From: a virus | Taxonomy: Duplodnaviria > Caudoviricetes | Length of the DNA: 64,000 nt | Reading direction: 5' to 3' (one strand) | Virus record (IMG/VR): IMGVR_UViG_3300003523_000207 | Coordinates: 1 to 64,000 of that record | Shown here: one piece after another, positions 12,245 to 43,990 of the stretch | Layout: the number at the start of each line of letters is the position of its first letter | How positions within the stretch are numbered: the first letter of the stretch is position 1 | Notes under the pieces: generated by a model | The model's database searches: none | Seen by the model: only the letters and a program-made list of their open reading frames with translations | What the model was told of the DNA's origin: nothing | Made by a program: the position numbers and the translations under genes

Positions 12245-12421
12245 ATGAGCAGACGCGAATCTATGGTGGAACGCGGCGAACGCGAATGTATTTCCAGCGG
12301 AATCGCCACATACGGCTACAAACGCTTCTGGATGGCTATAGACGAGCTTAACAGCAATAATCCGCCCAACCCAGTGACTTTGGAACTAATCCGACGGAAA
12401 TTTCCACAATTACAAAAATGA
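12245..12421 (+). CDS. Small hypothetical protein (58 aa)
   Basis: Below the ORF-track cut-off; MSRRESMVERGERECISSG...PQLQK*, fills the gap before a terminator. Confidence 0.5.
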   Translation: MSRRESMVERGERECISSGIATYGYKRFWMAIDELNSNNPPNPVTLELIRRKFPQLQK

Positions 12422-12448
12422 AAAAGGCGGCTTAAAGCCGCCTTTCTT
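12421..12448. terminator. Bidirectional intrinsic terminator
   Basis: AAAAAGGCGGCT-taa-AGCCGCCTTTCTT between convergent genes; near-identical copy at 28176-28206. Confidence 0.75.
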
Positions 12449-12449
12449 G

Positions 12450-12950
12450 TTATAACCCGACTCGATCCGCCTTACTCAGTAGTCTCTGGTTACGGCTACC
12501 CCTAAATTGCAAATCTAGGTCTCTCTGGGCTTGAATAAACGGACCATCCACTAACACGTCCACGGCGTCAAGAATTTGGCTTGTAACCCCCTCTACGTGT
12601 TTTCGCTGCCCCGGTTTCAAGTCTTGTTCATAAATATAACCGGTATACATCCATAATGTCTTATCCGGGCATTCGTTTTTGAAACGACTGATTAAGCCAA
12701 CCAACCCAACCTGGTTCTCCGGCTCGAACGGGTCACCGCCTAGAATCGACAACCCGGAAATATAGGACTTCTTACACGCTTCGATAATCTCGTTTACCTC
12801 AATTTCAGTAAACGGCTTTCCATAATTGAAGTTCCAAGTTTCCTCGTTAAAACAGCCTTGACAATGGTTTCTACAACCGCTTACATACAGCGATACGCGG
12901 TTTCCGGGGCCGTCTACTATGGACATATAGTAAATGTTGCCATAATTCAT
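12450..12950 (-). CDS. nrdG: Anaerobic ribonucleotide reductase activating protein (radical SAM)
   Basis: DGPGNRVSLYVSGCRNHCQGCFN (CxxxCxxC), GGDP, DVLVDGPF, FRGSRNQR. Confidence 0.95.
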   Translation of the reverse strand: MNYGNIYYMSIVDGPGNRVSLYVSGCRNHCQGCFNEETWNFNYGKPFTEIEVNEIIEACKKSYISGLSILGGDPFEPENQVGLVGLISRFKNECPDKTLWMYTGYIYEQDLKPGQRKHVEGVTSQILDAVDVLVDGPFIQAQRDLDLQFRGSRNQRLLSKADRVGL

Positions 12951-12981
12951 ACTATTTCCTCTTATTCTTGCAAAAACTTAG

Positions 12982-13125
12982 AAAAAAGATACCCTCGGTA
13001 TAGCAATATTGTGGAACTCTGCGTATACCAAGGGCATCCGAAACTTATATTTGAATACGAGTTCCGCCAAGTATTATAAAGGCAGTTATATATTGACCCT
13101 TAAACGTACTTGGCGGTGTTCGCCG
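12982..13125 (-). ncRNA. Structured leader/attenuator RNA between nrdD and nrdG
   Basis: Hairpin with loop GCGGAACTC, then a terminator-like hairpin (12988-13038) with loop GAGTTCCAC and a U6 tail; competing stem CCGCCAAGTA/TACTTGGCGG. Confidence 0.55.
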
Positions 13126-13127
13126 GC

Positions 13128-15704
13128 TTAGATATTGTGACGGTCTGCCAGCTCGGCCAGCTTTCCATCACCCCAAGACCGTTTGATAGTCTTTCTCGGC
13201 GACCCAGTCAAATATCCAGTAATACGTCTCACCCGAACAAACTCATCTTCATCCTTGCAATGGCATTTCGGGCATTCATTATTGATAATGCCGTGGAATC
13301 CGCATTCCAAGCAGTCGTCCGAATCCATTGTCACGGTGAAATAGCCCAAGTCGCCGTCATACATTGCATCAATGGCAGCCTTTACCGCCTCGACATTCTT
13401 AGTCAAGTCTCCATTCATCTTGAAGTAGAAGATGTGGCCAGCATTCGTCAAAGCGTGGAAAGGAGCCTCGGTCTTAATCTTGTTTTCAAGAGACGTTTCG
13501 AGCGAGAAATCCATCATATGGCTGTTGGTATAGTAACCCTTACCAAACAGTCTATACAAATCCACATCGGCAAGTTTCTTGTTCTTTGCAACCAACATCG
13601 TATGACCATTCTCGTCGGTTACTTCCTTGGAGAACTTATTCTTATCGATTGTTGCAAAACGACCGGCAACCGCTTCAGCTGGTGTTGCAAAACAGCTCCA
13701 GTTCAAGTGTGTTTCATCCTGAGTCTGGTCACAGAAGTCACGAATGCGCTTGACAATGGATAGTGCAAACTCATCCTCTTCGTGGTCAACTCCATACGTC
13801 TTGCCAGTAATAACGCGAATCGTTTCGGCAATACCAACATAACCAATGCTCAGCGTAGACTGCTTCATAACATCAGCAATCTTGTCGGAGAGCTTATGCG
13901 GCTTATCGTCGGAAGTCAAATATACGCCTTGCTGCATCGTAAAGGGGAAATTCTCATACGTTTTCTCGCAAATCAGTTTAAAGCGTTCGAGAAGGCTTCC
14001 CTTGGCATCTTCAAGCATAGCGTCAAGCTTGCTAAAGAACAAATTTTTGCGGGTTTCGACGTTGGTGGACTCGATATGAGCTTCAATGGCCAGACGCGGA
14101 AGGTTAATCGTGTGGAAAGCGAAATTTCCACGACCAGTCGTCTGCTGAACACCGTTCACATTACCCATAACGCGAGTACGACATCCCATCGTTGCCACGG
14201 TAGTGTTAGGAACAATTCGACGGAGCTTTGCGTGGAACCCCTTACAAGACACGATATCCCAGTTACTACCAACGCCAAGATTTACAGAATAAATCGGATA
14301 TTCACCTTTAGCAGTTTCGATGTCCGTGTCGGCTGTCACTGTAATAGAATCATCACACCCACGGTGAGAAATCCGCTGGCCATCCTTAAAATCAAGTTCA
14401 ACGGTGTCATACTTCACATACGGAAGGTTAAACTTAGAGTCGACCTTTACAAAATTCGGGTAGAAACGACGGGACAAACATTCAACCGCTTGCAAATACA
14501 AGTCGTAATTAGGATCCGTCGTAAGCTTGGAGAACCCCTTCATAAGCTTAAAAATCAAAATGGGGAAGATGGCCGTAAGGCCGTCGCCCATACCTTCGTA
14601 CTGAGCACGCATAAGGTTCTTACTGAGCATTCGACCGCAATTGGAAGTATCAATACCGAAATTCAAAGAAGAGAACGGTACTTGGTTACCAGACCTTGAT
14701 TGCAACGAATTCAAGTTGTGAACCAGTGCTTCCATCGCTTGGTGGGTATTACTATCCGTAAATTCGATGGAACGGTCAACTTGTTCGATAGGGAACTGGG
14801 AGTACAACAACTCTCTAGGACTATCCATCGTTACGCCACGCGATTGGAGCATTTGTGCAATACGGGCAATCGTATCGTCAATCTTCTTCTCGGTCGGCAG
14901 TGCAAGGTATTCTGCATATTCTGGGTTCTTAGAGCAAACCGCAATCCCATTCATTTCACGAGCCAAATTCTTTCGGAACGAAATATCAACAAACGGAGCC
15001 AAGTCAAAGTCGATATTGTCGCACGCGATACCGCCATACTGCTGGTTAGACTGCAACTGCAAAATAACAGCGGTCAATGCGGCGGCAGATTGAATCGAAT
15101 TAGCCTTTCTCAAGAACCCTGTACCAGAATCAAATCCTTCTCGTAGTAACTTACCCACCGGGGCAAACAAGCAGTTAAAGGAGAGGTCATAAAAGTTCTG
15201 GTCGTGAATATGAATCTGACCATCGGCGTGCTCGTCAACGTACTTCTTGGAAATCGTGTTCAAGCAGTTGTACATCTTGTTCATTTCACTGGCAATCTTA
15301 CCGTACATACCAGCCGGGGTAACGCCAGATTCATTTGCGTTATCGCGCAAGATGTTGCAGCTAGACAATTTATCGTGTTTGAGTCGACGGATAATCGCAT
15401 AAATTCCGCTCTGGTTTTCACGAATCCGAGCGCGGTTCTGGCGGTATTCGATAAATGCCTTGGCGACGGCGTTCATACCGTTGTTCATCAAGACGTTTTC
15501 GATGGTATCTTGGATGGTTTCCACGTTAGCGGATTTCTTGCCGCCCACACTCAATTCATCTACGACCGACCCTACAAGTCCATCAAGCTGTTCATTGGTA
15601 TATGACTCCTTGCAGTCCTTAAAAGCGGCTTCAATGGCGTCATAAATGTGCTTGGTGTCAAATGGTCTTTTGCGATAGTCTCGCTTAATTACAGAAATTA
15701 GCAT
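13128..15704 (-). CDS. nrdD: Anaerobic (class III) ribonucleoside-triphosphate reductase
   Basis: N-terminal ATP cone (VIKRD...IQDTIE), IHIHD, MGCRT, TPAE, CxxC...CxxC and the RRITGYL glycyl radical motif. Confidence 0.95.
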   Translation of the reverse strand: MLISVIKRDYRKRPFDTKHIYDAIEAAFKDCKESYTNEQLDGLVGSVVDELSVGGKKSANVETIQDTIENVLMNNGMNAVAKAFIEYRQNRARIRENQSGIYAIIRRLKHDKLSSCNILRDNANESGVTPAGMYGKIASEMNKMYNCLNTISKKYVDEHADGQIHIHDQNFYDLSFNCLFAPVGKLLREGFDSGTGFLRKANSIQSAAALTAVILQLQSNQQYGGIACDNIDFDLAPFVDISFRKNLAREMNGIAVCSKNPEYAEYLALPTEKKIDDTIARIAQMLQSRGVTMDSPRELLYSQFPIEQVDRSIEFTDSNTHQAMEALVHNLNSLQSRSGNQVPFSSLNFGIDTSNCGRMLSKNLMRAQYEGMGDGLTAIFPILIFKLMKGFSKLTTDPNYDLYLQAVECLSRRFYPNFVKVDSKFNLPYVKYDTVELDFKDGQRISHRGCDDSITVTADTDIETAKGEYPIYSVNLGVGSNWDIVSCKGFHAKLRRIVPNTTVATMGCRTRVMGNVNGVQQTTGRGNFAFHTINLPRLAIEAHIESTNVETRKNLFFSKLDAMLEDAKGSLLERFKLICEKTYENFPFTMQQGVYLTSDDKPHKLSDKIADVMKQSTLSIGYVGIAETIRVITGKTYGVDHEEDEFALSIVKRIRDFCDQTQDETHLNWSCFATPAEAVAGRFATIDKNKFSKEVTDENGHTMLVAKNKKLADVDLYRLFGKGYYTNSHMMDFSLETSLENKIKTEAPFHALTNAGHIFYFKMNGDLTKNVEAVKAAIDAMYDGDLGYFTVTMDSDDCLECGFHGIINNECPKCHCKDEDEFVRVRRITGYLTGSPRKTIKRSWGDGKLAELADRHNI

Positions 15705-25949: not shown

Positions 25950-26303
25950 ATGACGATGAAACGAGATATATACGATTCTGTGGCACTGACCAGTGACCAA
26001 GCGGCCTTCAAGAAGCTGGTGGACGATGCTTCGGTTAAGCTAACCAAGTATTCCCGCTCCGTCAGCGTGGTCGGCTGCAAGTCCGGCCCCGGTTATGAAT
26101 ATTCCGACTATGTCGTAACGATTCGAGTAACCCACGACCGACAGTCTTGCTGCGTATTCCGAAACCGAACCGGTGTAATGGTGTATGCAATGATTGGTGG
26201 TAAGGTAGCCAGTGTCCATCACGAGTTCATATTTGTAGAAGACCATCTACAATCGTTATTGGCAGCCAACAATCAATCACCAGAAAAGGAAGGAAATGGC
26301 TAA
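25950..26303 (+). CDS. Hypothetical protein
   Basis: 117 aa ORF overlapping the infA start. Confidence 0.55.
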   Translation: MTMKRDIYDSVALTSDQAAFKKLVDDASVKLTKYSRSVSVVGCKSGPGYEYSDYVVTIRVTHDRQSCCVFRNRTGVMVYAMIGGKVASVHHEFIFVEDHLQSLLAANNQSPEKEGNG

Positions 26304-27672: not shown

Positions 27673-28173
27673 ATGCACGAATCGCTAAAAAATGTTCTTG
27701 AATCGGTTTCGCCGTCGATGAAAAAGGCCGTAACCGAGATGTACGAGTTGCTAATCGAGGGTGCGATGAACACCCCGACCAGCTCCGACGCGGTCGAACA
27801 TCTTCAGGCGACCGTGGGAGTGAACCCCAACGAGGTGAAGGACGGCACGAAAATCGTCGGACTTGCCGGTAAGGTCGGTATGGACGGCAAGAGCAGCCTC
27901 GCGAAGGATGAAGACCAGTTACTGAATCGGGTCAGCAACGATATGGCCGCGATACAGCCTATCGACGTACAGCTCCCAAAAGAAGACCAATTTGAAAACC
28001 TCCCGACTGGTGGCGGCCAGACCGTCGAACCCCCAGCAGAAGAGCCGGTTGACTTAGCCCAGCCGGAGGAAGACGGCGACGATGAAATGACGTGGGACGA
28101 AATACAAAACGCTCCGCCGTCGATTCCGGAAGGAACATCAGACGAAGACCTAGCTGGTCTGTTAGACGGATAA
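27673..28173 (+). CDS. Acidic hypothetical protein (possible internal head protein)
   Basis: 166 aa with a GAGG RBS; N-terminal amphipathic motif ending LIEG. Confidence 0.6.
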   Translation: MHESLKNVLESVSPSMKKAVTEMYELLIEGAMNTPTSSDAVEHLQATVGVNPNEVKDGTKIVGLAGKVGMDGKSSLAKDEDQLLNRVSNDMAAIQPIDVQLPKEDQFENLPTGGGQTVEPPAEEPVDLAQPEEDGDDEMTWDEIQNAPPSIPEGTSDEDLAGLLDG

Positions 28174-28175
28174 TT

Positions 28176-28206
28176 AAAAAGGCGGCTTAAATAGCCGCCT
28201 ATTTTT
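28176..28206. terminator. Bidirectional intrinsic terminator
   Basis: AAAAAGGCGGCT-taaat-AGCCGCCTATTTTT. Confidence 0.75.
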
Positions 28207-29401
28207 ATAATGTCGCTTGGGACGAGACGTGGAACTTTGCGTGTTTGGCCTCTTCCTTTCGTTTCTCGGCCTTGACAATGTCGCGCAACTGTTTCTTTTC
28301 TTCCTTCTCGCGAGTACGGATCTTCTTTAACAGAGCCTTACGTACTTCCTTGTTGTACTCAAGACGCTGCGGAGACACGTTACCTTCCTTGATGAATCGG
28401 TCGACGTTTCCGATAACCTTCGCGACCTTAACTTCTTCGTCGTTGAACGTATTCAATGCGTTAATACGAGCGGTCGTGTTCTCACGAGCGGTCTTGACGA
28501 CCGCATCAATTCGGTCCCACACGCCATACATCTTGTCGAAGTTCGCCTCGATATATGAACAAAGGGACTGCGGAGACATTGGGTTCTGGTTAACCACGCC
28601 TTCTGGAACCCATCTGTCAGCCTTCCAAGCCTTACCTTCTACTTGAACCGGGATAATCTTCAGACGACCATCCGCATTTACTTGGACCAATGTCATATGT
28701 TCAGCGTTGGCCGCCCAGTTAATGCACTTGCGCTTCGACTCTCCGTGGTCGTTGTAACCAAGGCTAACGGTTTCCTTGCACTGGAAAACCACGCCCCAGT
28801 AGAAATTCTTCGTATCGACCGGGCTGAGGTCTTTCAGCTTGACGGTGTACATATAACCGTTACGACGGCCACCGACTTCTTCGGTCTTTGAGTTGGTATC
28901 GACTTTCCAGAACGTATTGATGTTCGGCAAGCCGTGGTACACTTGGGTTTCACAAATAGAACGCGCATCCATTTCGGACTGCATCAGTTCGATATACCAC
29001 TCGCCGTCATCTTCTTCCTTCGGGTCGCTGGTGTGGTAGAAAAGGTTCAAAGTACCATTGACAAACGTAATCCACTGGGGGTCTTCGTTCTGGAAATCGT
29101 AGGAGCCGAACCACTCTGCATACTTTTTCTGAGCGAGCGTCGGCAAGTCGACGACACGAGACATACCGTCGAAGTCGTGAGGCGCGAAACCAGCATCGCG
29201 GCACTTGTTCATAATCCAAAAATCAAGGATGATGTCCTTGTGGGAGTCCCAAGTAATTCCGGCGTTGATGTAGTTGATCAGACGAATTCCGGCCACCTTC
29301 TTGGCCTTCATCTCAAGAAGAATCTGCTGCGAGCTGTCCCACAGCATATCAGCGTTGATGCTATTGAAGAGGCTGATTCGCTTGTTATTCGTGTCATTCA
29401 T
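28205..29401 (-). CDS. Hypothetical protein
   Basis: 398 aa with a GAGG RBS, ATAAACT at 29421-29427 and a basic coiled-coil C-terminus. Confidence 0.7.
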   Translation of the reverse strand: MNDTNNKRISLFNSINADMLWDSSQQILLEMKAKKVAGIRLINYINAGITWDSHKDIILDFWIMNKCRDAGFAPHDFDGMSRVVDLPTLAQKKYAEWFGSYDFQNEDPQWITFVNGTLNLFYHTSDPKEEDDGEWYIELMQSEMDARSICETQVYHGLPNINTFWKVDTNSKTEEVGGRRNGYMYTVKLKDLSPVDTKNFYWGVVFQCKETVSLGYNDHGESKRKCINWAANAEHMTLVQVNADGRLKIIPVQVEGKAWKADRWVPEGVVNQNPMSPQSLCSYIEANFDKMYGVWDRIDAVVKTARENTTARINALNTFNDEEVKVAKVIGNVDRFIKEGNVSPQRLEYNKEVRKALLKKIRTREKEEKKQLRDIVKAEKRKEEAKHAKFHVSSQATL

Positions 29402-29488: not shown

Positions 29489-30250
29489 ATGTACGATATG
29501 TTCGACCTCCCTAATGAAATCGAGCTTGCCCAGAGCATTCTGGAGGCCAAGAAACAGCCGCGCAAGACCGATACCACCATCGATGTCAAAGACATCTTCC
29601 CGTTCAGCACGCCCAACCCGGCGAAGTCCAAGGTCGTTTCCGACAAGACTGGCGTCGTGAAGCCCAAGGTTGACTTCCGCGATTCCGACGTTGCTACCGC
29701 TTGGGAAAAGTTCCTTGGCAATATGAAGGCCAAGAAGGCTGAAACCAAGGGTGACGATTTCGGTCGTCTCGAAGTGAAGAACGGCGAAAAGATTCCGTCC
29801 GTCGAAAAGATTTCCAATACCATCAAGGCTCTCAAGACCACCAAGGTCACCGGACTAAACGGCAAGAGCACTTCCGAAACCGAAGTCCTCGGCGTGTTCA
29901 AGGAAATGGCCAAGACCTCCGCTACCAAGCTTCCGGACAAGACCGGCGTTGTGAAACCGAAGGACGGTCTCGGTAAGATCGACAAGAAGCCGAAGTTCGA
30001 CGTTGACGCAAGTGCCGAAGTCGTTGTCAAGACCGCCATCCCGTCCAAGGATAACAAGATGGTCGATAAGACTGGTGTTGTAAAACCGAAAGACGGCCTC
30101 GGAAAGATTGACAAGAAGCCGAAGATCATTGATATGACCGGTACGACCGTCGTTGTCAAGGATGCGATTCCGTCCAAGGACAACAAGATGGTTGACAAGA
30201 GCGGTGCTGTGAAGCCCAAGAAGCTCGAACCGGCCAACGTCAAGAAGTAA
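29489..30250 (+). CDS. Lysine-rich repeat protein (possible DNA-binding internal virion protein)
   Basis: Four DK(T/S)G(V/A)VKPK repeats; TATAAACT at 29451-29458. Confidence 0.7.
   Translation: MYDMFDLPNEIELAQSILEAKKQPRKTDTTIDVKDIFPFSTPNPAKSKVVSDKTGVVKPKVDFRDSDVATAWEKFLGNMKAKKAETKGDDFGRLEVKNGEKIPSVEKISNTIKALKTTKVTGLNGKSTSETEVLGVFKEMAKTSATKLPDKTGVVKPKDGLGKIDKKPKFDVDASAEVVVKTAIPSKDNKMVDKTGVVKPKDGLGKIDKKPKIIDMTGTTVVVKDAIPSKDNKMVDKSGAVKPKKLEPANVKK
29936..30220 (+). repeat. Degenerate intragenic tandem repeat (~126 bp unit)
   Basis: DKTGVVKPKDGLGKIDKKPK...AIPSKDNKMV repeated with synonymous divergence. Confidence 0.7.
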
Positions 30251-39060: not shown

Positions 39061-40380
39061 TTACTTCTTGGTGATGCCGCCAGCGGATTGGTTCTTTTCG
39101 CTCTTGGAATCACCACGCTTGACCCATTCGTCAAACACTTCGCTGCCAAGGAACGAGAGGAAGTCCTTGGTCGGACCCGGCTGCATCCAGTAATCAAAGT
39201 TCACGTCGGCGGAAACCCAAAGCGGCAAGTGGGTACCGTCATTCGAAATAAATTGTTCCTTCGAGGCGGTAATCTTAACCGAGGTCAGCACTACCGGTTC
39301 CAAGTCCAAATAGTGACCGACACTGATTCGCACCGGAAGGGGGTTTGCCGTAATTTCGCCACCGAAATAAGTATTGATGCTGTTGTACGCACTGACCGCG
39401 CCACCAGCGATTTTCTTCATCAAATCCTTCGCTCGCTGGCCTCTAGTTCCAGTAGAACTTCCCTCGGACTTGTCGCTTTCACTTGTCGTTTCAGTATTAC
39501 CGCCGCCTTCGTTGAGACCGAGTGCCATCGCGGTATTGTCTGAATAATAGTTCGCAGTGTCGCGAGCCTCATTTGAAAGGAACTCACGGTTAGATGCTGT
39601 AGTTCCGCTGTCAGTAACGATTCCCCAGCTATCAGCCACCGTATCAGCAGCAAAGTTTCCGACATCCTTGATTGCATCCTTGGCGGCGTCAAGAGCCTTT
39701 CCACCAGCGTTCATAATGCCGTTAATCGCGGCGTTAATAATCGTGGCCGAGTCCATATCCATCGGACGGACATAAGTCATCATAATCAAACGCTTGATGG
39801 AAATTCGACACATCTGTTCTTGTTCGGGCAGATACCACTTGAACTTGAGCGGCATATTCGCGCCGATGGTAGTCCTGGTAAACTGCTTAATGGTCGTACT
39901 ACCGGTCGAGTTGTTGTTCATACCGGCAAACGACATCGAGGTGGTCGCCAGCTTTTCGATAGACTGCAAAGCCGTATCGGTCTTCTTTGACAAAGTTGCA
40001 CCAGCAAACGGAACAAGACCGACTAGGCCGCCAGCACCGTCACCAGTAAGCAGCGTGTTCATCATCGAGAAACCAGACTTCTGGCTGGGCTGGTTCCAAG
40101 ATGCGGTCACGTTGATACTCGGACCAACAGCCGCGCTCTGATCCAGAATACCATAAAACGGTTCATACAAGTTATAATTGCTTGCCTCGGCACACGCATC
40201 TTGCATCGTAGTTCTAAATTCATCAAGGACACTCTGGAAACCGCCCATATACGAACGACGAGCGGGACCATCCAATACTTGGATTCGCACCACGTTAGGC
40301 TTCGGTAGATTCTCGATCATCCTACCAGAGGTATGGCCTACACGCTTCTGATACTTTTTGACTTCGTTCTTCTTAGCCAT
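39061..40380 (-). CDS. Tail tube initiator / baseplate junction protein (gp48-like)
   Basis: PLPVRISVG....EPVVLTSV.I.......GTHLPL...DVNF; follows the tape measure gene. Confidence 0.6.
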   Translation of the reverse strand: MAKKNEVKKYQKRVGHTSGRMIENLPKPNVVRIQVLDGPARRSYMGGFQSVLDEFRTTMQDACAEASNYNLYEPFYGILDQSAAVGPSINVTASWNQPSQKSGFSMMNTLLTGDGAGGLVGLVPFAGATLSKKTDTALQSIEKLATTSMSFAGMNNNSTGSTTIKQFTRTTIGANMPLKFKWYLPEQEQMCRISIKRLIMMTYVRPMDMDSATIINAAINGIMNAGGKALDAAKDAIKDVGNFAADTVADSWGIVTDSGTTASNREFLSNEARDTANYYSDNTAMALGLNEGGGNTETTSESDKSEGSSTGTRGQRAKDLMKKIAGGAVSAYNSINTYFGGEITANPLPVRISVGHYLDLEPVVLTSVKITASKEQFISNDGTHLPLWVSADVNFDYWMQPGPTKDFLSFLGSEVFDEWVKRGDSKSEKNQSAGGITKK

Positions 40381-40437
40381 ACATTACCCGATAACTCATT
40401 CCTGTAAATTTCTATGAATAATCGCAAAAGCTGCATA

Positions 40438-41802
40438 TTATATCAATGAGTTTATAGTGCTGAGTTCCTGCTTCAACAACCGGCACGGTTCTTCCGCAAG
40501 GAAGAACTGCAACCTCCGGTCTCTGGGGCTGACAAAAGTCATACCTTCCTTCCGGTAGACGGAAGGGCAGGCTTCGGCGGAACATCCGCCTACGGCTAAT
40601 CGCGCCGCATCATTGTCGGAAGTCTGGACGAGTCCAGACAGCCAAAGACCATAGAAATGGAGATTCTTGGCCGCATTAACATCACGGTCATGGTGCTCGC
40701 CACATACTGGGCAAGTCCATTCTCGGTCTTTTAAAGTCAAGTTTGTGTTCTTGTAGCATCCGCAATGCGAGCAGAACTGGCTGGACGCATAGAACTGCGG
40801 CGCAAGTATCAGCTTGATACCAAGCCACTTGCACTTGTATTTCATGTACTCCTTAATGCGTCCGAAATTGGCATCAAGGACGGACATAGAAAGATTGTGA
40901 TTCTTCGCCATATTCACCGGACGAAGCATCTCCATTACGACCATCTTTGGCTTGGACTTGTAGGTCAAGTCCGCCGTAAGCTGGTGTGCGTGGTTGATTC
41001 TGATAGAGGTTACCTTATGCCAAGCCTTGGCAAGAAGGATTCTAGCCTTCTTACGGTTCTTTGATTTTTTCTTCCGGCGAGACACCGTCTTCTGGATGCG
41101 CTTGATGCGCTTCATATACCGCTTGTATGCCTTCGGATTTGCATAAACTACGCCATCTGAAGTGATTGCAGAATCCTTGATACCAAGGTCTACTCCGATG
41201 ATGTCGTCTTCTGTAACTGAGGTAACCTCGTCATATAACGGTACAACATCTGTATGATAGGCAAACGATACGAACCAATGTCCAACCGCATCGACGGATA
41301 CGGTAGCCATTGCAATCGGAACCTTATCGGAACCGTCTGGTATCTTGATGTAGTCCTTCTCGGCTAATCTTATTCTGCCGAGTGTAGGCAACTGGACGAA
41401 GTCCCTGCCAATGAATACTCCACCTGAGCAGCGGAACGACTCGTCTACGCCGTAATGATGGAACTTCGGGTGTCTTGCCAGTCCCTTGAAGAACCGCTTC
41501 CAAGCAGAACCGAGGTCGATCAGAGCTTCTTGGCCACAAAACTTGGATACCGAGGTAATCCATTCATTACCCGGTTCCTTCTTGTAGATACACCATTCCT
41601 TGTGCCAGTCCCTCGGCGTTCCAAATCGGCACTTGGGCTTCTCGCCTTCTGGGGCAGCTTTCTTGGCTGCCTTGTATTCGGCATTCTGTATAGCAAGTTT
41701 CCAGTTGTAGGCACGACGAGAGACGGCGCACATACGGTGCATCGTCCGTATTTGAGCCTTAGTCGGCAATAAGCCTATCTTTCGTCCGCACTGCTGTTCC
41801 AT
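40438..41802 (-). CDS. tnpB: RNA-guided endonuclease TnpB (IS607-type)
   Basis: N-terminal L.PT..Q....R.AYNW, RuvC GVDLGIK / VVMEML / DRDVNAAKNL intact, CSHC...CPVC Zn finger. Confidence 0.95.
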   Translation of the reverse strand: MEQQCGRKIGLLPTKAQIRTMHRMCAVSRRAYNWKLAIQNAEYKAAKKAAPEGEKPKCRFGTPRDWHKEWCIYKKEPGNEWITSVSKFCGQEALIDLGSAWKRFFKGLARHPKFHHYGVDESFRCSGGVFIGRDFVQLPTLGRIRLAEKDYIKIPDGSDKVPIAMATVSVDAVGHWFVSFAYHTDVVPLYDEVTSVTEDDIIGVDLGIKDSAITSDGVVYANPKAYKRYMKRIKRIQKTVSRRKKKSKNRKKARILLAKAWHKVTSIRINHAHQLTADLTYKSKPKMVVMEMLRPVNMAKNHNLSMSVLDANFGRIKEYMKYKCKWLGIKLILAPQFYASSQFCSHCGCYKNTNLTLKDREWTCPVCGEHHDRDVNAAKNLHFYGLWLSGLVQTSDNDAARLAVGGCSAEACPSVYRKEGMTFVSPRDRRLQFFLAEEPCRLLKQELSTINSLI

Positions 41803-41807
41803 ACAAA

Positions 41808-41908
41808 CCAAAATGCCCAGCGAACGCTTATTGTGGAAGTCTGCATTCGCCGGGCATAGAAAATCCGCTTCTCTTTATATACGAGGACTTCCACATGCTC
41901 GCATATAC
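41808..41908 (-). ncRNA. Structured leader RNA (kissing-loop hairpins, terminator-like) upstream of tnpB
   Basis: Hairpin 1 TATATGCGAG/CTCGTATATA with loop TGTGGAAGTC; hairpin 2 (41813-41857) with loop GACTTCCACA followed by TTTT. Confidence 0.6.
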
Positions 41909-42001
41909 CAAAAGTTTATATATGTGGCACAAATTTTATTGCGATTATACGCAAAATCCGTAGAAATCCATAGAAAATCATAGAAATTTAGTCGTCAGAT
42001 G

Positions 42002-43915
42002 TTACCCCAACAACGACCCGTTAATCGCTTCGCCAGTAGCCTTAGCCTGTTCAGCGTTAGCAGTTTTAACTTCTTCACTTGTCATAGCCTCGATAAAGGC
42101 TTCCTTCATCGCCTCGACAGTTTCCTTGTTCTTTTCATTCTCGTTTGCACGCTTACCGTTAGCGTTATCGCCAGTAGTCGCGGTAGGCGTATTCGAGTTA
42201 GCGGTAGAACCGGAGGCAAGTTTCTTGTCTCCCTGATATAGAGCGGCAGCTGTTCCAAAACCACCAGCGTTTCCGTTGATGTTCACAAGGCCAACTTGAT
42301 CCTTGGTCAAACCGTACATATTTGCGCGACGGATTGCCTTGGTTGTTTCAGTTTCGTTACCAGCCAAGTGAGCGATTTCGGCAGAGAACGCTTGACCGAT
42401 AGAAACTTCGTTCGCGTCGTGAGCGTTCATAAATCCGGAACCGGCACCCTTCAGCGCACCCTTGAGGCCGTTCTTCATCGCACCATTAACGGCACCCTTG
42501 ACAGTTCCGATAATTTCAGGCACGGCGAGCGTATTCATCAAGGCATCGGTAGCACCAGCAAGAGCCGTCGAGGTGATGTCCGAAATGCTACCACCCTTCT
42601 TCCAAACGTCATAAGAGTTCTTTGCGCCGTCAACAAGGCTAATCGCGCCAGAAATAACGGGCAGCTTACGTCCAATCTTCGCTGCGGCAGAGCCAGCGGA
42701 CTTGGCCGCCGAAAGGGCGGCGTTAGTGAACTTTCCGACCGGAGACTTGGTATAAGCAGTTGCCGCCGCCTTTCCAACCTTCGAGAGTTTCGCACCGATC
42801 TTCGACATCAGCTTACCTTCTTGGGCAGCGTTCTTGACCGACCCGATTAGACTCTTGGCTTTGTTGAAAAGACCGCCAATCTTATCCTTAACCGCGCTGG
42901 CGGCCTTTCCAACGGCACTGTTCTTGACGGCGTCCTTCCAACCGGATAGCGTCTTCATGAACGAGGACTTTAGGCCGCCGAGAGTTTCCCTCACCGCAGA
43001 AGTCATACTCTTGAACTTGCCGACAACGGTCTGCGTCATTCCGCTGATAGTGGATTTAAACTTTGTCCCAAGATTCGCAATGGCTTTACCAAGCTTCGTG
43101 TCCTTCATCCACTTGGTCGCACCCTTCCAGACATTTGCAAACGCCTTACCGACCTTGCTCCACTGAGCTTTGAGACCTTGCATCCATCCGATAGCAAGAC
43201 CACCCAGAGCACCGATAGCACCACCAATAAGAGTTCCAAGAAAGCTCGACAGCCCAAACCCGGACTCGTCCGAAACAGTCAATATCTGGTTTTCTTGGTT
43301 CAGATACTTGTCCAGAGCTTGGGAAAGCTTGGTCATAGTCGGCTTCACAGTGTATTCTTGATAAGCCTTGCTCTCTTCGTGATCAATCTTCGATTGAACG
43401 CGGTCGGTCTCGTCTCCAGCGAGACCAGCCTTGTACGAGATATTTTCATTGTTCTCGGCTGCAGACCCGGCCACTGGCGAAGCAGTCTGTGCGGCTCCGA
43501 TATTGGAGATTCCGCCTTGAACCGCTCCAGACGAGTCGGTGAACACTATACCGTGGTTGATAATGATGTTCTTGATAGAACCATTACCGGCGACCATATC
43601 ACCAGTAAAGTTGCTACCGAGGCTCATACTGTTCTGGCTGGATGCCATAGCTTGCTGGGCAAACCCAGACTGGCCGTAATTTTCCTGAGCCGTAGCGGCA
43701 TTTCCGATTCCGCTAGTCCGTTCGTTGAACTGTTTAAGCAGTTCTATGATCGATGCTTGGTTTTCAAGGACCGCGTCCATCGGGTCGGCTTTAGGCGCAC
43801 TGTTATTCTCCTCGTGGAAATCCACAAGATTTTGGTGAGCCTTTGCGGCCTCTTGTTCGGCCAAAGCCTCCAGCATACCAGCCTTTACCGCATTTTTGAT
43901 GTCTACAGTAGCCAT
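42002..43915 (-). CDS. Tape measure protein (gp29-like)
   Basis: A/G/K-rich helical repeats, hydrophobic GxxxG segment; between chaperone and tube-initiator genes; TATAAACT at 43942-43949. Confidence 0.7.
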   Translation of the reverse strand: MATVDIKNAVKAGMLEALAEQEAAKAHQNLVDFHEENNSAPKADPMDAVLENQASIIELLKQFNERTSGIGNAATAQENYGQSGFAQQAMASSQNSMSLGSNFTGDMVAGNGSIKNIIINHGIVFTDSSGAVQGGISNIGAAQTASPVAGSAAENNENISYKAGLAGDETDRVQSKIDHEESKAYQEYTVKPTMTKLSQALDKYLNQENQILTVSDESGFGLSSFLGTLIGGAIGALGGLAIGWMQGLKAQWSKVGKAFANVWKGATKWMKDTKLGKAIANLGTKFKSTISGMTQTVVGKFKSMTSAVRETLGGLKSSFMKTLSGWKDAVKNSAVGKAASAVKDKIGGLFNKAKSLIGSVKNAAQEGKLMSKIGAKLSKVGKAAATAYTKSPVGKFTNAALSAAKSAGSAAAKIGRKLPVISGAISLVDGAKNSYDVWKKGGSISDITSTALAGATDALMNTLAVPEIIGTVKGAVNGAMKNGLKGALKGAGSGFMNAHDANEVSIGQAFSAEIAHLAGNETETTKAIRRANMYGLTKDQVGLVNINGNAGGFGTAAALYQGDKKLASGSTANSNTPTATTGDNANGKRANENEKNKETVEAMKEAFIEAMTSEEVKTANAEQAKATGEAINGSLLG

Positions 43916-43990
43916 TTTTGCATTCCAAGTCGGTTACTTGCAGTTTATATGATTTTGGGCATCAAAAAAGGCAAAGCCTCGCGGCTTCGC

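What the first reader, a model, noticed from the sequence alone, without database searches (positions are those of the whole stretch)
41808..41908. Attenuator-like kissing-loop leader in place of tnpA
Seen: two hairpins with perfectly complementary 10-nt loops (TGTGGAAGTC / GACTTCCACA), the second followed by a U-tract about 10 nt before the tnpB ATG. It is homologous to the nrdG leader. Because the element sits mid-operon, termination here would also affect downstream baseplate genes. Inference: the transposon has acquired a phage regulatory RNA (or donated it), coupling nuclease expression to the infection programme.
Basis: partly seen in the sequence, partly recalled or inferred. Interest (0 to 1): 0.7.

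Follow-up and report, generated by a model that had tools for sequence, protein, structure and literature searches.

The report
Kissing-hairpin leader RNA before phage tnpB
The stretch in front of this rumen jumbo-phage tnpB nuclease gene is a real, conserved folded RNA leader whose two hairpin tips always pair with each other; it travels with selfish nuclease genes and most likely keeps their expression low.

Summary
On the minus strand, 41907-41813, two hairpins (H1, H2) carry perfectly complementary 10-nt loop segments. A U-rich 10-nt spacer and the tnpB ATG (41802) follow.

The fold is not chance. 37 of 70 related tnpB loci carry it. All 34 base pairs show compensatory changes, including the 10 loop-loop pairs, which the search model did not contain. 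At least 18 loop-pair versions exist.

It lies inside a 1.6-kb tnpA-less IS607-family element. Empty sites in two sister phages show the element was inserted in the 3-nt gap between two co-transcribed genes.

It is not a generic IS607 end. Four of four tnpA-bearing relatives lack it, and three copies keep the left end but lack exactly this module.

The same module heads other TnpB lineages and a PD-(D/E)XK nuclease. The "nrdG leader" is a decaying relic of such a nuclease cassette, which is intact in sister phages.

Best reading (about 0.5): a cis-acting attenuator or roadblock that throttles an SD-less nuclease gene, analogous to the regulation of T-even homing endonuclease genes.

I found no Rfam family and no paper describing it. 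The function is inferred, not shown.

The parts
40388..42008 (-). tnpA-less IS607-family element (about 1.62 kb): left end, leader, tnpB, right end. The left limit is uncertain over 42008-41999 because the target and the left end share those letters.
   Evidence: Contigs of other metagenomes stop matching at 40388 and 42009. Alignment of copies from other contexts. Empty sites in sister phages L237 and L238.
41957..41990 (-). Left-end subterminal repeats (three roughly 10-nt units), inverted relative to repeats in the right end at 40405-40427. These are probably TnpA (serine recombinase) binding sites.
   Evidence: Inverted repeats I5 and I9 and direct family D1. Conserved in A-type copies from other contexts.
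41914..41920 (-). TATAAAC heptamer, the phage's promoter-like motif, 6 nt upstream of H1.
   Evidence: 13 of 16 TATAAAC sites in the 81.5-kb record have an ATG-ORF starting 3-80 nt downstream (mostly 23-35 nt). Random positions give a mean of 4.9, and 0 of 2000 trials reach 13. The heptamer is conserved before H1 in most leader copies.
41876..41907 (-). Hairpin H1: 10-bp stem and 12-nt loop. The loop's last 10 nt (41895-41886) pair with the H2 loop.
   Evidence: 9 of 9 modelled stem pairs have changes on both sides.
41813..41857 (-). Hairpin H2: 15-bp stem, 15-nt loop, -26.1 kcal/mol. Loop segment 41841-41832 pairs with the H1 loop.
   Evidence: (15 of 15 stem pairs covary, 96.8% of cells paired).
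41803..41812 (-). U-rich spacer between H2 and the tnpB start codon. It holds no Shine-Dalgarno motif.
   Evidence: The spacer is 9-14 nt and 4-7 of its first 8 letters are U in 33 of 33 leaders. An SD-like motif is present in 2 of 25 leader-bearing junctions against 19 of 27 leaderless junctions.
41828..41857 (-). Possible 9-codon mini-ORF. Its AUG is the first three letters of the H2 5' arm, and a GGA lies 6 nt upstream (41866-41864). Speculative.
   Evidence: AUG at the 5' base of H2 in 29 of 33 leaders. A GGA/AGG/GAG within 14 nt upstream in 24 of 33. A 5- or 9-codon ORF in 18 of 33. The AUG/CAU pairs are the least variable pairs in H2.
40438..41802 (-). tnpB, 454 codons plus stop.
   Evidence: Pfam and PHROG matches. 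58-97% identical relatives.
40450..40456 (-). Second TATAAAC heptamer, inside the last codons of tnpB, 69 nt upstream of the next gene's ATG (40380).
   Evidence: Only this copy has it: 1 of 13 homologous right ends, and the other 12 have G at the fourth letter.
40388..40437 (-). Right end after the tnpB stop. It holds the inverted copies of the left-end repeats, and the conserved terminal letters end in GG.
   Evidence: Loose ends at 40388.
12977..13091 (-). Decayed relic of the same leader class between nrdD (13128-15704) and nrdG (12450-12950). The heptamer is altered, the loop complement is reduced to 7 nt (13065-13059 with 13019-13013), and H2 at 13038-12988 is followed by six U.
   Evidence: 28.3 bits, E 0.003; an intact version plus a nuclease gene in sister phages.
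42002..43915 (-). Upstream gene (637 aa, unknown function). It has its own TATAAAC at 43949 and a canonical terminator before that, at 43992-43969.
39061..40380 (-). Downstream gene (439 aa). In sister phages without the element its ATG lies 3 nt after the stop of the 637-aa gene.

Best explanation
The stretch is the 5' leader RNA of a portable expression module for selfish nuclease genes in rumen jumbo phages. The module consists of a phage-type promoter heptamer (TATAAAC), hairpin H1, a spacer, the long hairpin H2, a U-rich tract and an SD-less start codon.

The loops of H1 and H2 pair over 9-10 bp. This locks the two hairpins into one compact, probably coaxially stacked fold. I propose the folded leader throttles the nuclease gene in cis. 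H2 plus the U-tract would act as a leaky intrinsic terminator and/or as a roadblock 9-14 nt before a start codon that has no Shine-Dalgarno motif. Only a small fraction of transcripts or ribosomes would then yield TnpB.

In this window the module sits inside a tnpA-less IS607-family element, in the place of tnpA. That element was inserted between two tightly linked phage genes. A second promoter heptamer, created by one base change at the element's right end, would then restore transcription of the downstream genes.

Shown: the fold, its covariation, the strand, its distribution, the insertion site and the relic.
Inferred: transcription from TATAAAC, termination or translational blockade, and the direction of the effect.
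For: Structure:
- MFE z -5.2.
- 34 of 34 pairs have changes on both sides. 89.3% of cells are paired against 70.7% in shuffles (0 of 500 reach the observed value) and 35-41% when partners are slid.
- The loop-loop helix was not part of the covariance model, yet 10 of 10 of its pairs covary.
- 29 of 29 distinct tnpB-linked leaders keep 9-10 complementary loop letters: 28 by script, and L151 by eye after the script misparsed it. Shuffled loops reach 9 or more in 12 of 5500 trials.

Strand:
- About 119 G-U cells in the H1 and H2 stems would be A-C mismatches on the other strand.

Link to nucleases. The downstream genes fall into these kinds:
- this TnpB family (37 of 70 loci, plus the L181 variant);
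- two more TnpB lineages with Pfam support (L200, L210);
- a long TnpB-like lineage (L198, L211);
- a 431-aa ORF with no family match (L212);
- a PD-(D/E)XK/DUF7487 nuclease (L201, and by likeness L214);
- one unknown 285-aa ORF and one 50-aa ORF.

Loss of the gene leads to decay of the leader:
- In the window and in L215.

Terminator or roadblock features:
- H2 is -26 kcal/mol.
- The spacer is 9-14 nt and 4-7 of its first 8 letters are U in 33 of 33 leaders.
- An SD-like motif is present in 2 of 25 leader-bearing junctions against 19 of 27 leaderless junctions.

Polarity:
- The next minus-strand TATAAAC downstream of this element lies at 25950.
- Only this copy has gained the heptamer in its right end (1 of 13).

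Precedent:
- T-even homing endonuclease genes are held down by RNA hairpins and weak internal terminators, with promoters for downstream genes embedded in the cassette (PMC2988022, passages read).
Against: - No transcript ends or starts were seen.
- The one RNA-library contig (41753-41889, depth 3.6) spans H2 into the ORF. If it is RNA at all, it shows read-through rather than termination.
- The H2 loop (13-16 nt) is far larger than in canonical terminators, including this phage's own. The consensus scan did not call H2.
- The start codon itself is not inside H2.
- The promoter lies upstream of both hairpins, unlike the T4 design.
- A stable 5' fold could equally stabilise the mRNA, which would raise rather than lower expression.
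- The right-end promoter argument rests on a single copy.
Confidence: 0.5

Rival explanations
1. mRNA stabiliser or expression enhancer. The kissing fold sits at the 5' end of the transcript made from TATAAAC. It would protect the tnpB mRNA, which also carries the guide RNA at its 3' end, from 5'-end-dependent decay, or serve as a ribosome standby platform next to the U-rich start region. It would raise expression rather than lower it.
For: H1 begins 6 nt after the promoter-like heptamer, so it would be at or near the 5' end. The U-rich single-stranded spacer next to the AUG is conserved. The module replaces translational coupling to tnpA, which these copies have lost. The RNA-library contig runs through H2 into the ORF.
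Against: The transcription start has not been mapped. Loss of the SD motif (2 of 25 against 19 of 27) and a -26 kcal/mol hairpin 10 nt from the AUG are more usual for repression. The known precedents for selfish nucleases in phages are repressive.
Confidence: 0.2
2. Translation-coupled attenuator. A mini-ORF starts at the AUG that forms the 5' base of H2, with a GGA 6-9 nt before it. A ribosome that loads there before H2 folds would melt H2. This would suppress termination and open the tnpB start. The kissing of H1 onto the mini-ORF region would bias the choice toward the closed state.
For: AUG at the 5' base of H2 in 29 of 33 leaders. A purine motif 6-9 nt upstream in 24 of 33. Mini-ORFs of 5 or 9 codons ending in the H2 loop in 18 of 33. 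The three AUG/CAU pairs are nearly invariant while the rest of the stem covaries freely.
Against: The H-type leaders (8 distinct sequences) have no stop in that frame. L200 and L182 lack the AUG. The sequence conservation can be explained by the stem base plus U-tract alone. A short ORF of this kind arises by chance fairly often.
Confidence: 0.15
3. RNA processing element: a self-cleaving RNA or an RNase III-type site formed by the roughly 35-bp stacked H1-kiss-H2 rod. It would cut the cassette's message out of the operon transcript.
For: The element sits inside a polycistronic unit. Stacked helices of this length resemble double-strand RNase substrates (inference). Conserved unpaired letters exist: UUU before H2 and UA in the H2 loop.
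Against: No Rfam ribozyme or other family matches, even at E up to 10 in the window stretch and up to 1 in 10 other loci. No conserved catalytic-core-like junction was seen. No read ends were available.
Confidence: 0.07
4. DNA-level role: a transposase or recombination site of the IS607 left end, or a generic end structure.
For: It lies between the left-end repeats and tnpB.
Against: 4 of 4 tnpA-bearing relatives lack it. L154, L156 and L167 keep the left end and lack exactly this module. The H-type copies have the module but no left-end repeats. It also heads a nuclease gene that is not in a transposon. IS607 transposases act on double-stranded DNA (passage in 10.1101/2023.11.20.567912). The many G-U pairs are strand-specific.
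Confidence: 0.03

Closest known systems
Regulatory RNA structures of T-even homing endonuclease genes (I-TevI, I-TevII, I-TevIII, segB, Aeh1 mobE; the seg43(25) hairpin just upstream of the RBS)
   Same: In both cases a stable leader hairpin stands immediately before a selfish nuclease gene embedded in a phage operon, next to a late-type promoter. The presumed purpose, limiting nuclease synthesis, is the same. The nrdD/nrdG gap is also a nuclease-gene site in T4, where mobC sits (PMC2988022, passages read).
   Different: In the T-even cases one hairpin sequesters the SD, and the late promoter lies inside it so that late transcripts escape. Here there are two hairpins joined by a covarying 9-10-bp loop-loop helix. 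The promoter motif lies upstream of both, the gene has no SD, and its AUG lies 9-14 nt outside H2. There is no sequence similarity.
Weak intrinsic terminators at the 5' end of mobE and segF, with promoters for downstream genes embedded in or after the cassette (T4)
   Same: Both have a GC-rich stem plus U-tract at the head of a nuclease cassette that would lower read-through. The downstream essential genes are served by a promoter carried by the cassette; here that is the heptamer at 40456-40450.
   Different: The H2 loop is 13-16 nt rather than about 4 nt. H2 lies before the ORF, not inside it, and it is tied to a second hairpin. Termination has not been measured here.
IS200 left end (terminator hairpin plus a stem-loop occluding the transposase RBS).
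   Same: Both are transposon-borne leader structures that insulate the element's gene from outside transcription and limit translation.
   Different: The transposon family is different (IS200/IS605, with a tyrosine-HUH transposase). There is no loop-loop pairing. The IS200 hairpin is also a transposase site, whereas the present module is separable from the IS607 ends.
Loop-loop (kissing) complexes of antisense control RNAs (ColE1 RNA I/RNA II, R1 CopA/CopT). Recalled from memory.
   Same: Both involve Watson-Crick pairing between two hairpin loops. One variant here (L181) has fully complementary 7-nt loops of the classic size.
   Different: Those act in trans between two RNAs. Here both loops lie on one leader 44 nt apart, and the pairing covaries within the molecule.

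Membership tests
Intrinsic (Rho-independent) terminator / attenuator | GC-rich stem directly followed by a U-rich tract | tested here: met
   H2 is a 15-19-bp stem with a GC-rich base. 4-7 of the first 8 letters after it are U in 33 of 33 leaders.
Intrinsic (Rho-independent) terminator / attenuator | Short loop (about 3-8 nt) | tested here: not met
   The H2 loop is 13-16 nt, and the consensus scan does not call it. The phage's own terminators have 4-nt loops.
Intrinsic (Rho-independent) terminator / attenuator | Transcript 3' ends at the U-tract | not testable with these tools
   Only assembled contigs of one RNA library were available. One contig runs through the site.
T-even type RBS-sequestering hairpin with embedded late promoter | The hairpin contains the SD or start codon of the nuclease gene | tested here: not met
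   The gene's AUG is 9-14 nt outside H2, and there is no SD in 23 of 25 leader-bearing junctions. Only an upstream AUG is sequestered (29 of 33).
T-even type RBS-sequestering hairpin with embedded late promoter | The promoter lies inside the structure, so its own transcripts lack the inhibitory arm | tested here: inconclusive
   The heptamer lies upstream of H1 and H2. In this window's type only, the heptamer region can pair with the AUG region (-7.0 kcal/mol, z -3.4), but this is not general (mean z -0.87 over 33 leaders).
IS607-family insertion sequence (the carrier element) | TnpB gene with RuvC-like and zinc-ribbon parts | tested here: met
   PF01385, PF07282 and PF12323 match. Aspartates, a glutamate and cysteines are invariant across six relatives. 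Which of them are catalytic was not mapped.
IS607-family insertion sequence (the carrier element) | Serine-recombinase TnpA (MerR-type HTH plus resolvase domain) | tested here: not met
   Absent from the window's element. Present and abutting tnpB in relative L122 (PF00239 5.1e-21, PF13411) and in 3 more loci. The window's copy is therefore a non-autonomous derivative.
IS607-family insertion sequence (the carrier element) | Defined ends shared by copies in different contexts, and an empty site in relatives | tested here: met
   Ends at about 42008 and at 40388. Empty sites in L237 and L238.
IStron (group I intron fused to IS605/IS607) | Group I ribozyme core in the left end | tested here: not met
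   No Rfam intron or other family at E up to 10 in 40000-42300. The leader is only about 110 nt. The element is intergenic, so no splicing is needed.
Any Rfam 15 family | Match to a curated covariance model | tested here: not met
   In the window stretch, only two chance snoRNA matches at E 3.4-6.4. In 10 other leader-bearing loci, only tRNAs and sub-threshold noise away from the motif.

The most novel reading that the evidence does not exclude
The leader is a self-contained, horizontally exchanged control cassette: promoter, kissing-loop attenuator, and a sequestered mini-ORF start. Unrelated selfish nucleases in rumen jumbo phages swap it among themselves; these are several TnpB lineages and a PD-(D/E)XK homing-type enzyme. 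The freely changing but always matched loop sequences would serve as a copy-specific identity code. Several cassettes in one genome would then fold, or be regulated, independently. All 7 phage records with two or more copies carry different loop pairs (16 copies). TnpB genes 95-96% identical to this one carry a completely different loop pair.
Probability: 0.15. Interest if true: 0.8.

Novelty: new variant of a known kind. Interest (0 to 1): 0.6.

Why it matters
TnpB is the ancestor of Cas12 and is now used as a compact genome editor, but how natural elements set its dose is little known. This work gives a testable, strongly covarying RNA module. It replaces tnpA and the Shine-Dalgarno site in phage-borne copies and is shared with homing-type nucleases. 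That suggests a common solution to the problem of carrying a DNA-cutting gene inside an essential phage operon.

The window also offers a complete natural history:
- the empty site;
- the insertion in a 3-nt intergenic gap;
- a one-base change that creates a promoter motif for the displaced downstream genes;
- a relic of a lost cassette at nrdD/nrdG.

If the loop pairing tunes termination or translation, it could serve as a small orthogonal regulatory part.

Tried and rejected
1. BLASTN of the element against the phage collection found no match.

2. Rfam found nothing at the motif.

3. A degenerate DNA pattern scan of IMG/VR returned 116 or more stretches. They were not examined further and nothing from them is used.

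4. A third helix pairing the promoter region with the AUG region is strong in this window's type (z -3.4). It is not conserved: mean z is -0.87, and cognate pairs score -3.9 against -3.4 kcal/mol for non-cognate pairs. I rejected it as a general feature.

5. My first hairpin-finding script mis-assigned H1 in many sequences and was replaced. L151 was still misparsed there and was read by eye.

6. In MAFFT and model alignments the H-type rows are one column out of register in the H1 loop. therefore undercounts their loop pairing; 80.9% is a lower bound.

7. I considered and dropped the IStron (group I intron) reading and the TATAAAC-as-TAM reading. The heptamer lies about 90 nt inside the left end. 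The empty site puts other letters next to the target.

8. RNA evidence: one metatranscriptome run held 5% of the words. Its three short contigs prove neither transcription nor termination.

9. A contig joint that skips 40529-41792 (a possible tnpB-less mini-element) has only 28 letters on one side and was not relied on.

10. Among mini-ORFs that are in frame with the gene, none has a stop. This looked significant at first but is confounded by the H-type leaders, which lack stops in any frame.

11. Literature searches found no description of such a leader (listings only): 'TnpB'+'kissing' gave 4 papers, none relevant. 'TnpB'+'jumbo phage', 'homing endonuclease'+'kissing'+'bacteriophage'+'leader' and 'TnpB'+'untranslated region'+'terminator'+'phage' also found none. 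Supplements were not consulted.

Full report
**What is there.**
All genes around the finding run on the minus strand. Read in that sense, the region contains the following, in order:
- the stop of a 637-aa gene at 42004-42002;
- three roughly 10-nt repeats (41990-41957);
- a TATAAT (41949-41944);
- the heptamer TATAAAC (41920-41914);
- hairpin H1 (stem 41907-41898 / 41885-41876, 12-nt loop);
- an 18-nt spacer;
- hairpin H2 (stem 41857-41843 / 41827-41813, 15-nt loop);
- a U-rich 10-nt spacer;
- the ATG of a 454-codon tnpB at 41802 (PF07282, PF01385, PF12323, phrog_506).

The last ten letters of the H1 loop and letters 2-11 of the H2 loop are exact complements. They are the only exact copies of that 10-mer in the window. 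The 131-nt stretch folds into just these hairpins, with z -5.2 and 0 of 200 shuffles as stable. Energies are H1 -10.4, H2 -26.1 and the loop duplex -15.1 kcal/mol.

**Is it more than chance?**
The window is part of an 81.5-kb IMG/VR record rated 19% complete, so the source is a jumbo phage. Searches with the TnpB protein found 70 related loci in viral, genome and metagenome collections. Neighbouring genes were compared for only six of these loci, and none shared the window's neighbours.

A covariance model built from nine leaders found the motif directly upstream of tnpB in 38 of 71 sources, the window included. These give 29 distinct sequences.

All 29 keep 9-10 Watson-Crick-complementary loop letters, although the letters differ: nine versions occur in this TnpB family alone. 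Examples are the window's pair, ATCGCCATTC with its complement, and TTGGCCGTC with its complement. Loops shuffled 5500 times reached 9 or more in 12 trials (L151 was read by eye).

On a 33-sequence alignment:
- every one of 34 pairs has changes on both sides;
- 89.3% of cells pair, against 70.7% in shuffles (0 of 500) and 35-41% with slid partners;
- the ten loop-loop pairs were not in the model, so they are an independent test, and all ten covary;
- their 80.9% pairing is a lower bound, because the nine H-type rows are one column out of register;
- about 119 G-U cells in the two stems show that the fold belongs to the tnpB-sense strand, which points to RNA.

Counting further genes (below), at least 18 loop-pair versions exist. 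One of them has 7-nt loops that are fully complementary (L181).

**What carries it.**
Copies from other contexts lose similarity to the window at about 42008 on the left and at 40388 on the right. Contigs of two gut metagenomes break off at 42009 and 40388. The right end carries the left-end repeats in inverted orientation. A 60%-identical relative (L122) has a MerR-HTH plus resolvase TnpA whose stop overlaps the tnpB start. The window therefore holds a 1.62-kb tnpA-less IS607-family element, and the leader lies where tnpA lies in the autonomous form.

Two sister phages, 97-98% identical in the flank, have the empty site. There the stop of the 637-aa gene is followed by three letters and then the ATG of the 439-aa gene. 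The element is thus wedged into a 3-nt gap inside an operon. The operon's promoter motif is at 43949, just after a canonical terminator.

**Is it a generic IS607 end? No.**
Of the 70 related loci:
- 37 have the leader, plus the L181 variant;
- 4 have tnpA instead;
- 8 have a GIY-YIG/NUMOD endonuclease gene abutting tnpB;
- 3 have too little upstream DNA;
- 17 have other junctions.

L154, L156 and L167 keep the left end up to the letters just before the heptamer and then go straight to the ATG. They lack exactly the module. Conversely, the H-type leaders have the module but none of the left-end repeats. TnpB genes 95-96% identical to the window's (L138, L140-L142) carry the H-type leader, which has a wholly different loop pair. 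The module is therefore exchanged as a unit.

**Who else has it?**
The models were run over ten phage records. Besides this tnpB family, hits precede:
- two further TnpB lineages with Pfam support (L200, 404 aa; L210, 376 aa);
- a long TnpB-like lineage (L198 and L211);
- a 431-aa ORF without a family match (L212);
- a 363-aa PD-(D/E)XK/DUF7487 protein (L201);
- an unknown 285-aa ORF (L203);
- a 50-aa ORF (L206);
- nrdG in this window.

In all 7 records with two or more copies, the loop pairs differ between copies.

**The nrdG leader.**
The likeness is real: shared sequence, a compensatory G/C swap in the loop complement, and 28.3 bits at E 0.003 with model R2. However, three sister phages with 98%-identical NrdG carry a better copy, with an intact heptamer and a 9-nt loop complement. 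It lies about 1.05 kb upstream of nrdG, at the head of a 360-aa ORF like the L201 nuclease.

In the window and in L215 that ORF is missing, and the sequence after H2 joins the last letters of the lost ORF. The window's copy has lost the heptamer consensus and two loop pairs, and L215 has lost H1. The nrdG leader is thus a relic of a free-standing nuclease cassette. The nrdD/nrdG gap is also a known endonuclease site in T4, where mobC sits (PMC2988022). The leader decays once its nuclease gene is gone, which argues that its function serves the nuclease gene and not nrdG.

**How it probably works.**
TATAAAC behaves as this phage's promoter motif. 13 of 16 sites have an ATG-ORF 3-80 nt downstream, mostly at 23-35 nt. 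Random positions average 4.9, and 0 of 2000 trials reach 13. For tnpB the distance is 112 nt, and the two hairpins fill it.

Several features fit a repressive role:
- In 33 of 33 leaders H2 is followed by a 9-14-nt spacer with 4-7 U among its first eight letters.
- Leader-bearing tnpB genes have almost no SD-like motif: 2 of 25 distinct junctions, against 19 of 27 leaderless ones.

A long GC-based hairpin plus a U-tract just before an SD-less start fits a leaky terminator, a translational roadblock, or both. The loop-loop helix would lock the fold; its linkers of 2-3 and 3-5 nt are compatible with coaxial stacking (inference).

There is no TATAAAC on this strand between 40380 and 25950. The downstream genes therefore depend on transcription through or out of the element. 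Only this copy has a TATAAAC in its right end, made by one base change (1 of 13 homologous ends) and lying 69 nt before the next ATG. This mirrors the embedded promoters of T4 endonuclease cassettes. It is indirect support for polarity, but it rests on one case.

**A possible refinement.**
The 5' base of H2 is an AUG in 29 of 33 leaders, with a GGA-type motif 6-9 nt before it in 24 of 33. It opens a 5- or 9-codon ORF ending in the H2 loop in 18 of 33. The AUG/CAU pairs are the least variable in the stem. A ribosome loading there would melt H2, which would give a translation-coupled attenuator. The H-type leaders do not fit, so I rank this as a rival.

**Against the repressive reading.**
- No RNA ends were available.
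- The one RNA-library contig spans H2 into the ORF.
- The H2 loop is much larger than a terminator's.
- A 5' fold could instead stabilise the message.

A pairing of the promoter region with the AUG region, which would give T4-like protection from read-through, is strong in this window's type but not general.

**Comparison and novelty.**
No Rfam family matches. Four full-text searches found no description (listings only). The IStron preprint, read by passages only, describes no such left-end structure. The closest known systems are the regulatory hairpins, weak terminators and embedded promoters of T-even homing endonuclease genes. The logic is the same, but the architecture differs and there is no sequence relation.

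Earlier notes of this scan describe the same leader class in other rumen jumbo phages and reach the same reading. They are not independent evidence, but my tests agree with them.

This window adds:
- the empty site;
- the separability of the module from the IS607 ends;
- the swap of leaders between near-identical tnpB genes;
- the loss of the SD;
- the right-end promoter change;
- the demonstration that the nrdG copy is a relic.

**Verdict.**
This is a new variant of a known kind of control. The function is inferred at about 0.5 confidence.

Noticed in passing
L132, L137, L158, L159, L161, L165, L169, L185 (upstream of the tnpB ATG); similar junctions in L150, L162, L175, L177, L188, L193: A second 5' arrangement of this TnpB family. 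A GIY-YIG/NUMOD homing-endonuclease gene, or another ORF, ends a few letters before tnpB at a conserved junction that carries an AAGGA-type SD. In these loci tnpB rides behind another selfish nuclease gene instead of the kissing leader.
   Followed up: partly
window 40450-40456 (minus strand): A single base change in the last codons of tnpB creates the phage promoter heptamer 69 nt before the displaced 439-aa gene. The 12 other homologous right ends lack it.
   Followed up: partly
L121:4593-7189: An array of 22 tRNA genes starts about 200 nt after the tnpB element of a related 224-kb phage record.
   Followed up: no
window 39300-43300, runs X5 and X6: Contigs at three to four times the depth of the tnpB body cover only the leader (41807-41956). 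A joint skips 40529-41792. Together these hint at abundant tnpB-less mini-elements or further leader copies. The joint has only 28 letters on one side.
   Followed up: no
L146 and L147: motif at 965-1087, tnpB ATG at 1501: Here the leader lies 415 nt upstream of tnpB, with a 132-aa ORF of no known family between them.
   Followed up: no
window 29642-30220: Three to four tandem 129-nt repeats (61-85% identical) lie inside the ORF 29489-30250, indicating a repeated protein domain.
   Followed up: no
window 12417-12455 and 28172-28210: Two near-identical canonical terminators (A-tract, 8-bp GC stem, 4-5-nt loop, U-tract), one of them just after nrdG. They show what this phage's ordinary terminators look like.
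   Followed up: no
window 7711 (minus strand) and 7736 (plus strand): Two TATAAAC heptamers lie back to back, 25 nt apart, facing divergent genes. This is probably a divergent promoter pair.
   Followed up: no
window 41999-42008 and 40381-40389: The first letters of the left end and the letters after the right end are nearly the same 9-mer, and the same letters stand in the empty site. The element seems to have chosen a target that mimics its own end, or the crossover site cannot be placed more exactly.
   Followed up: partly
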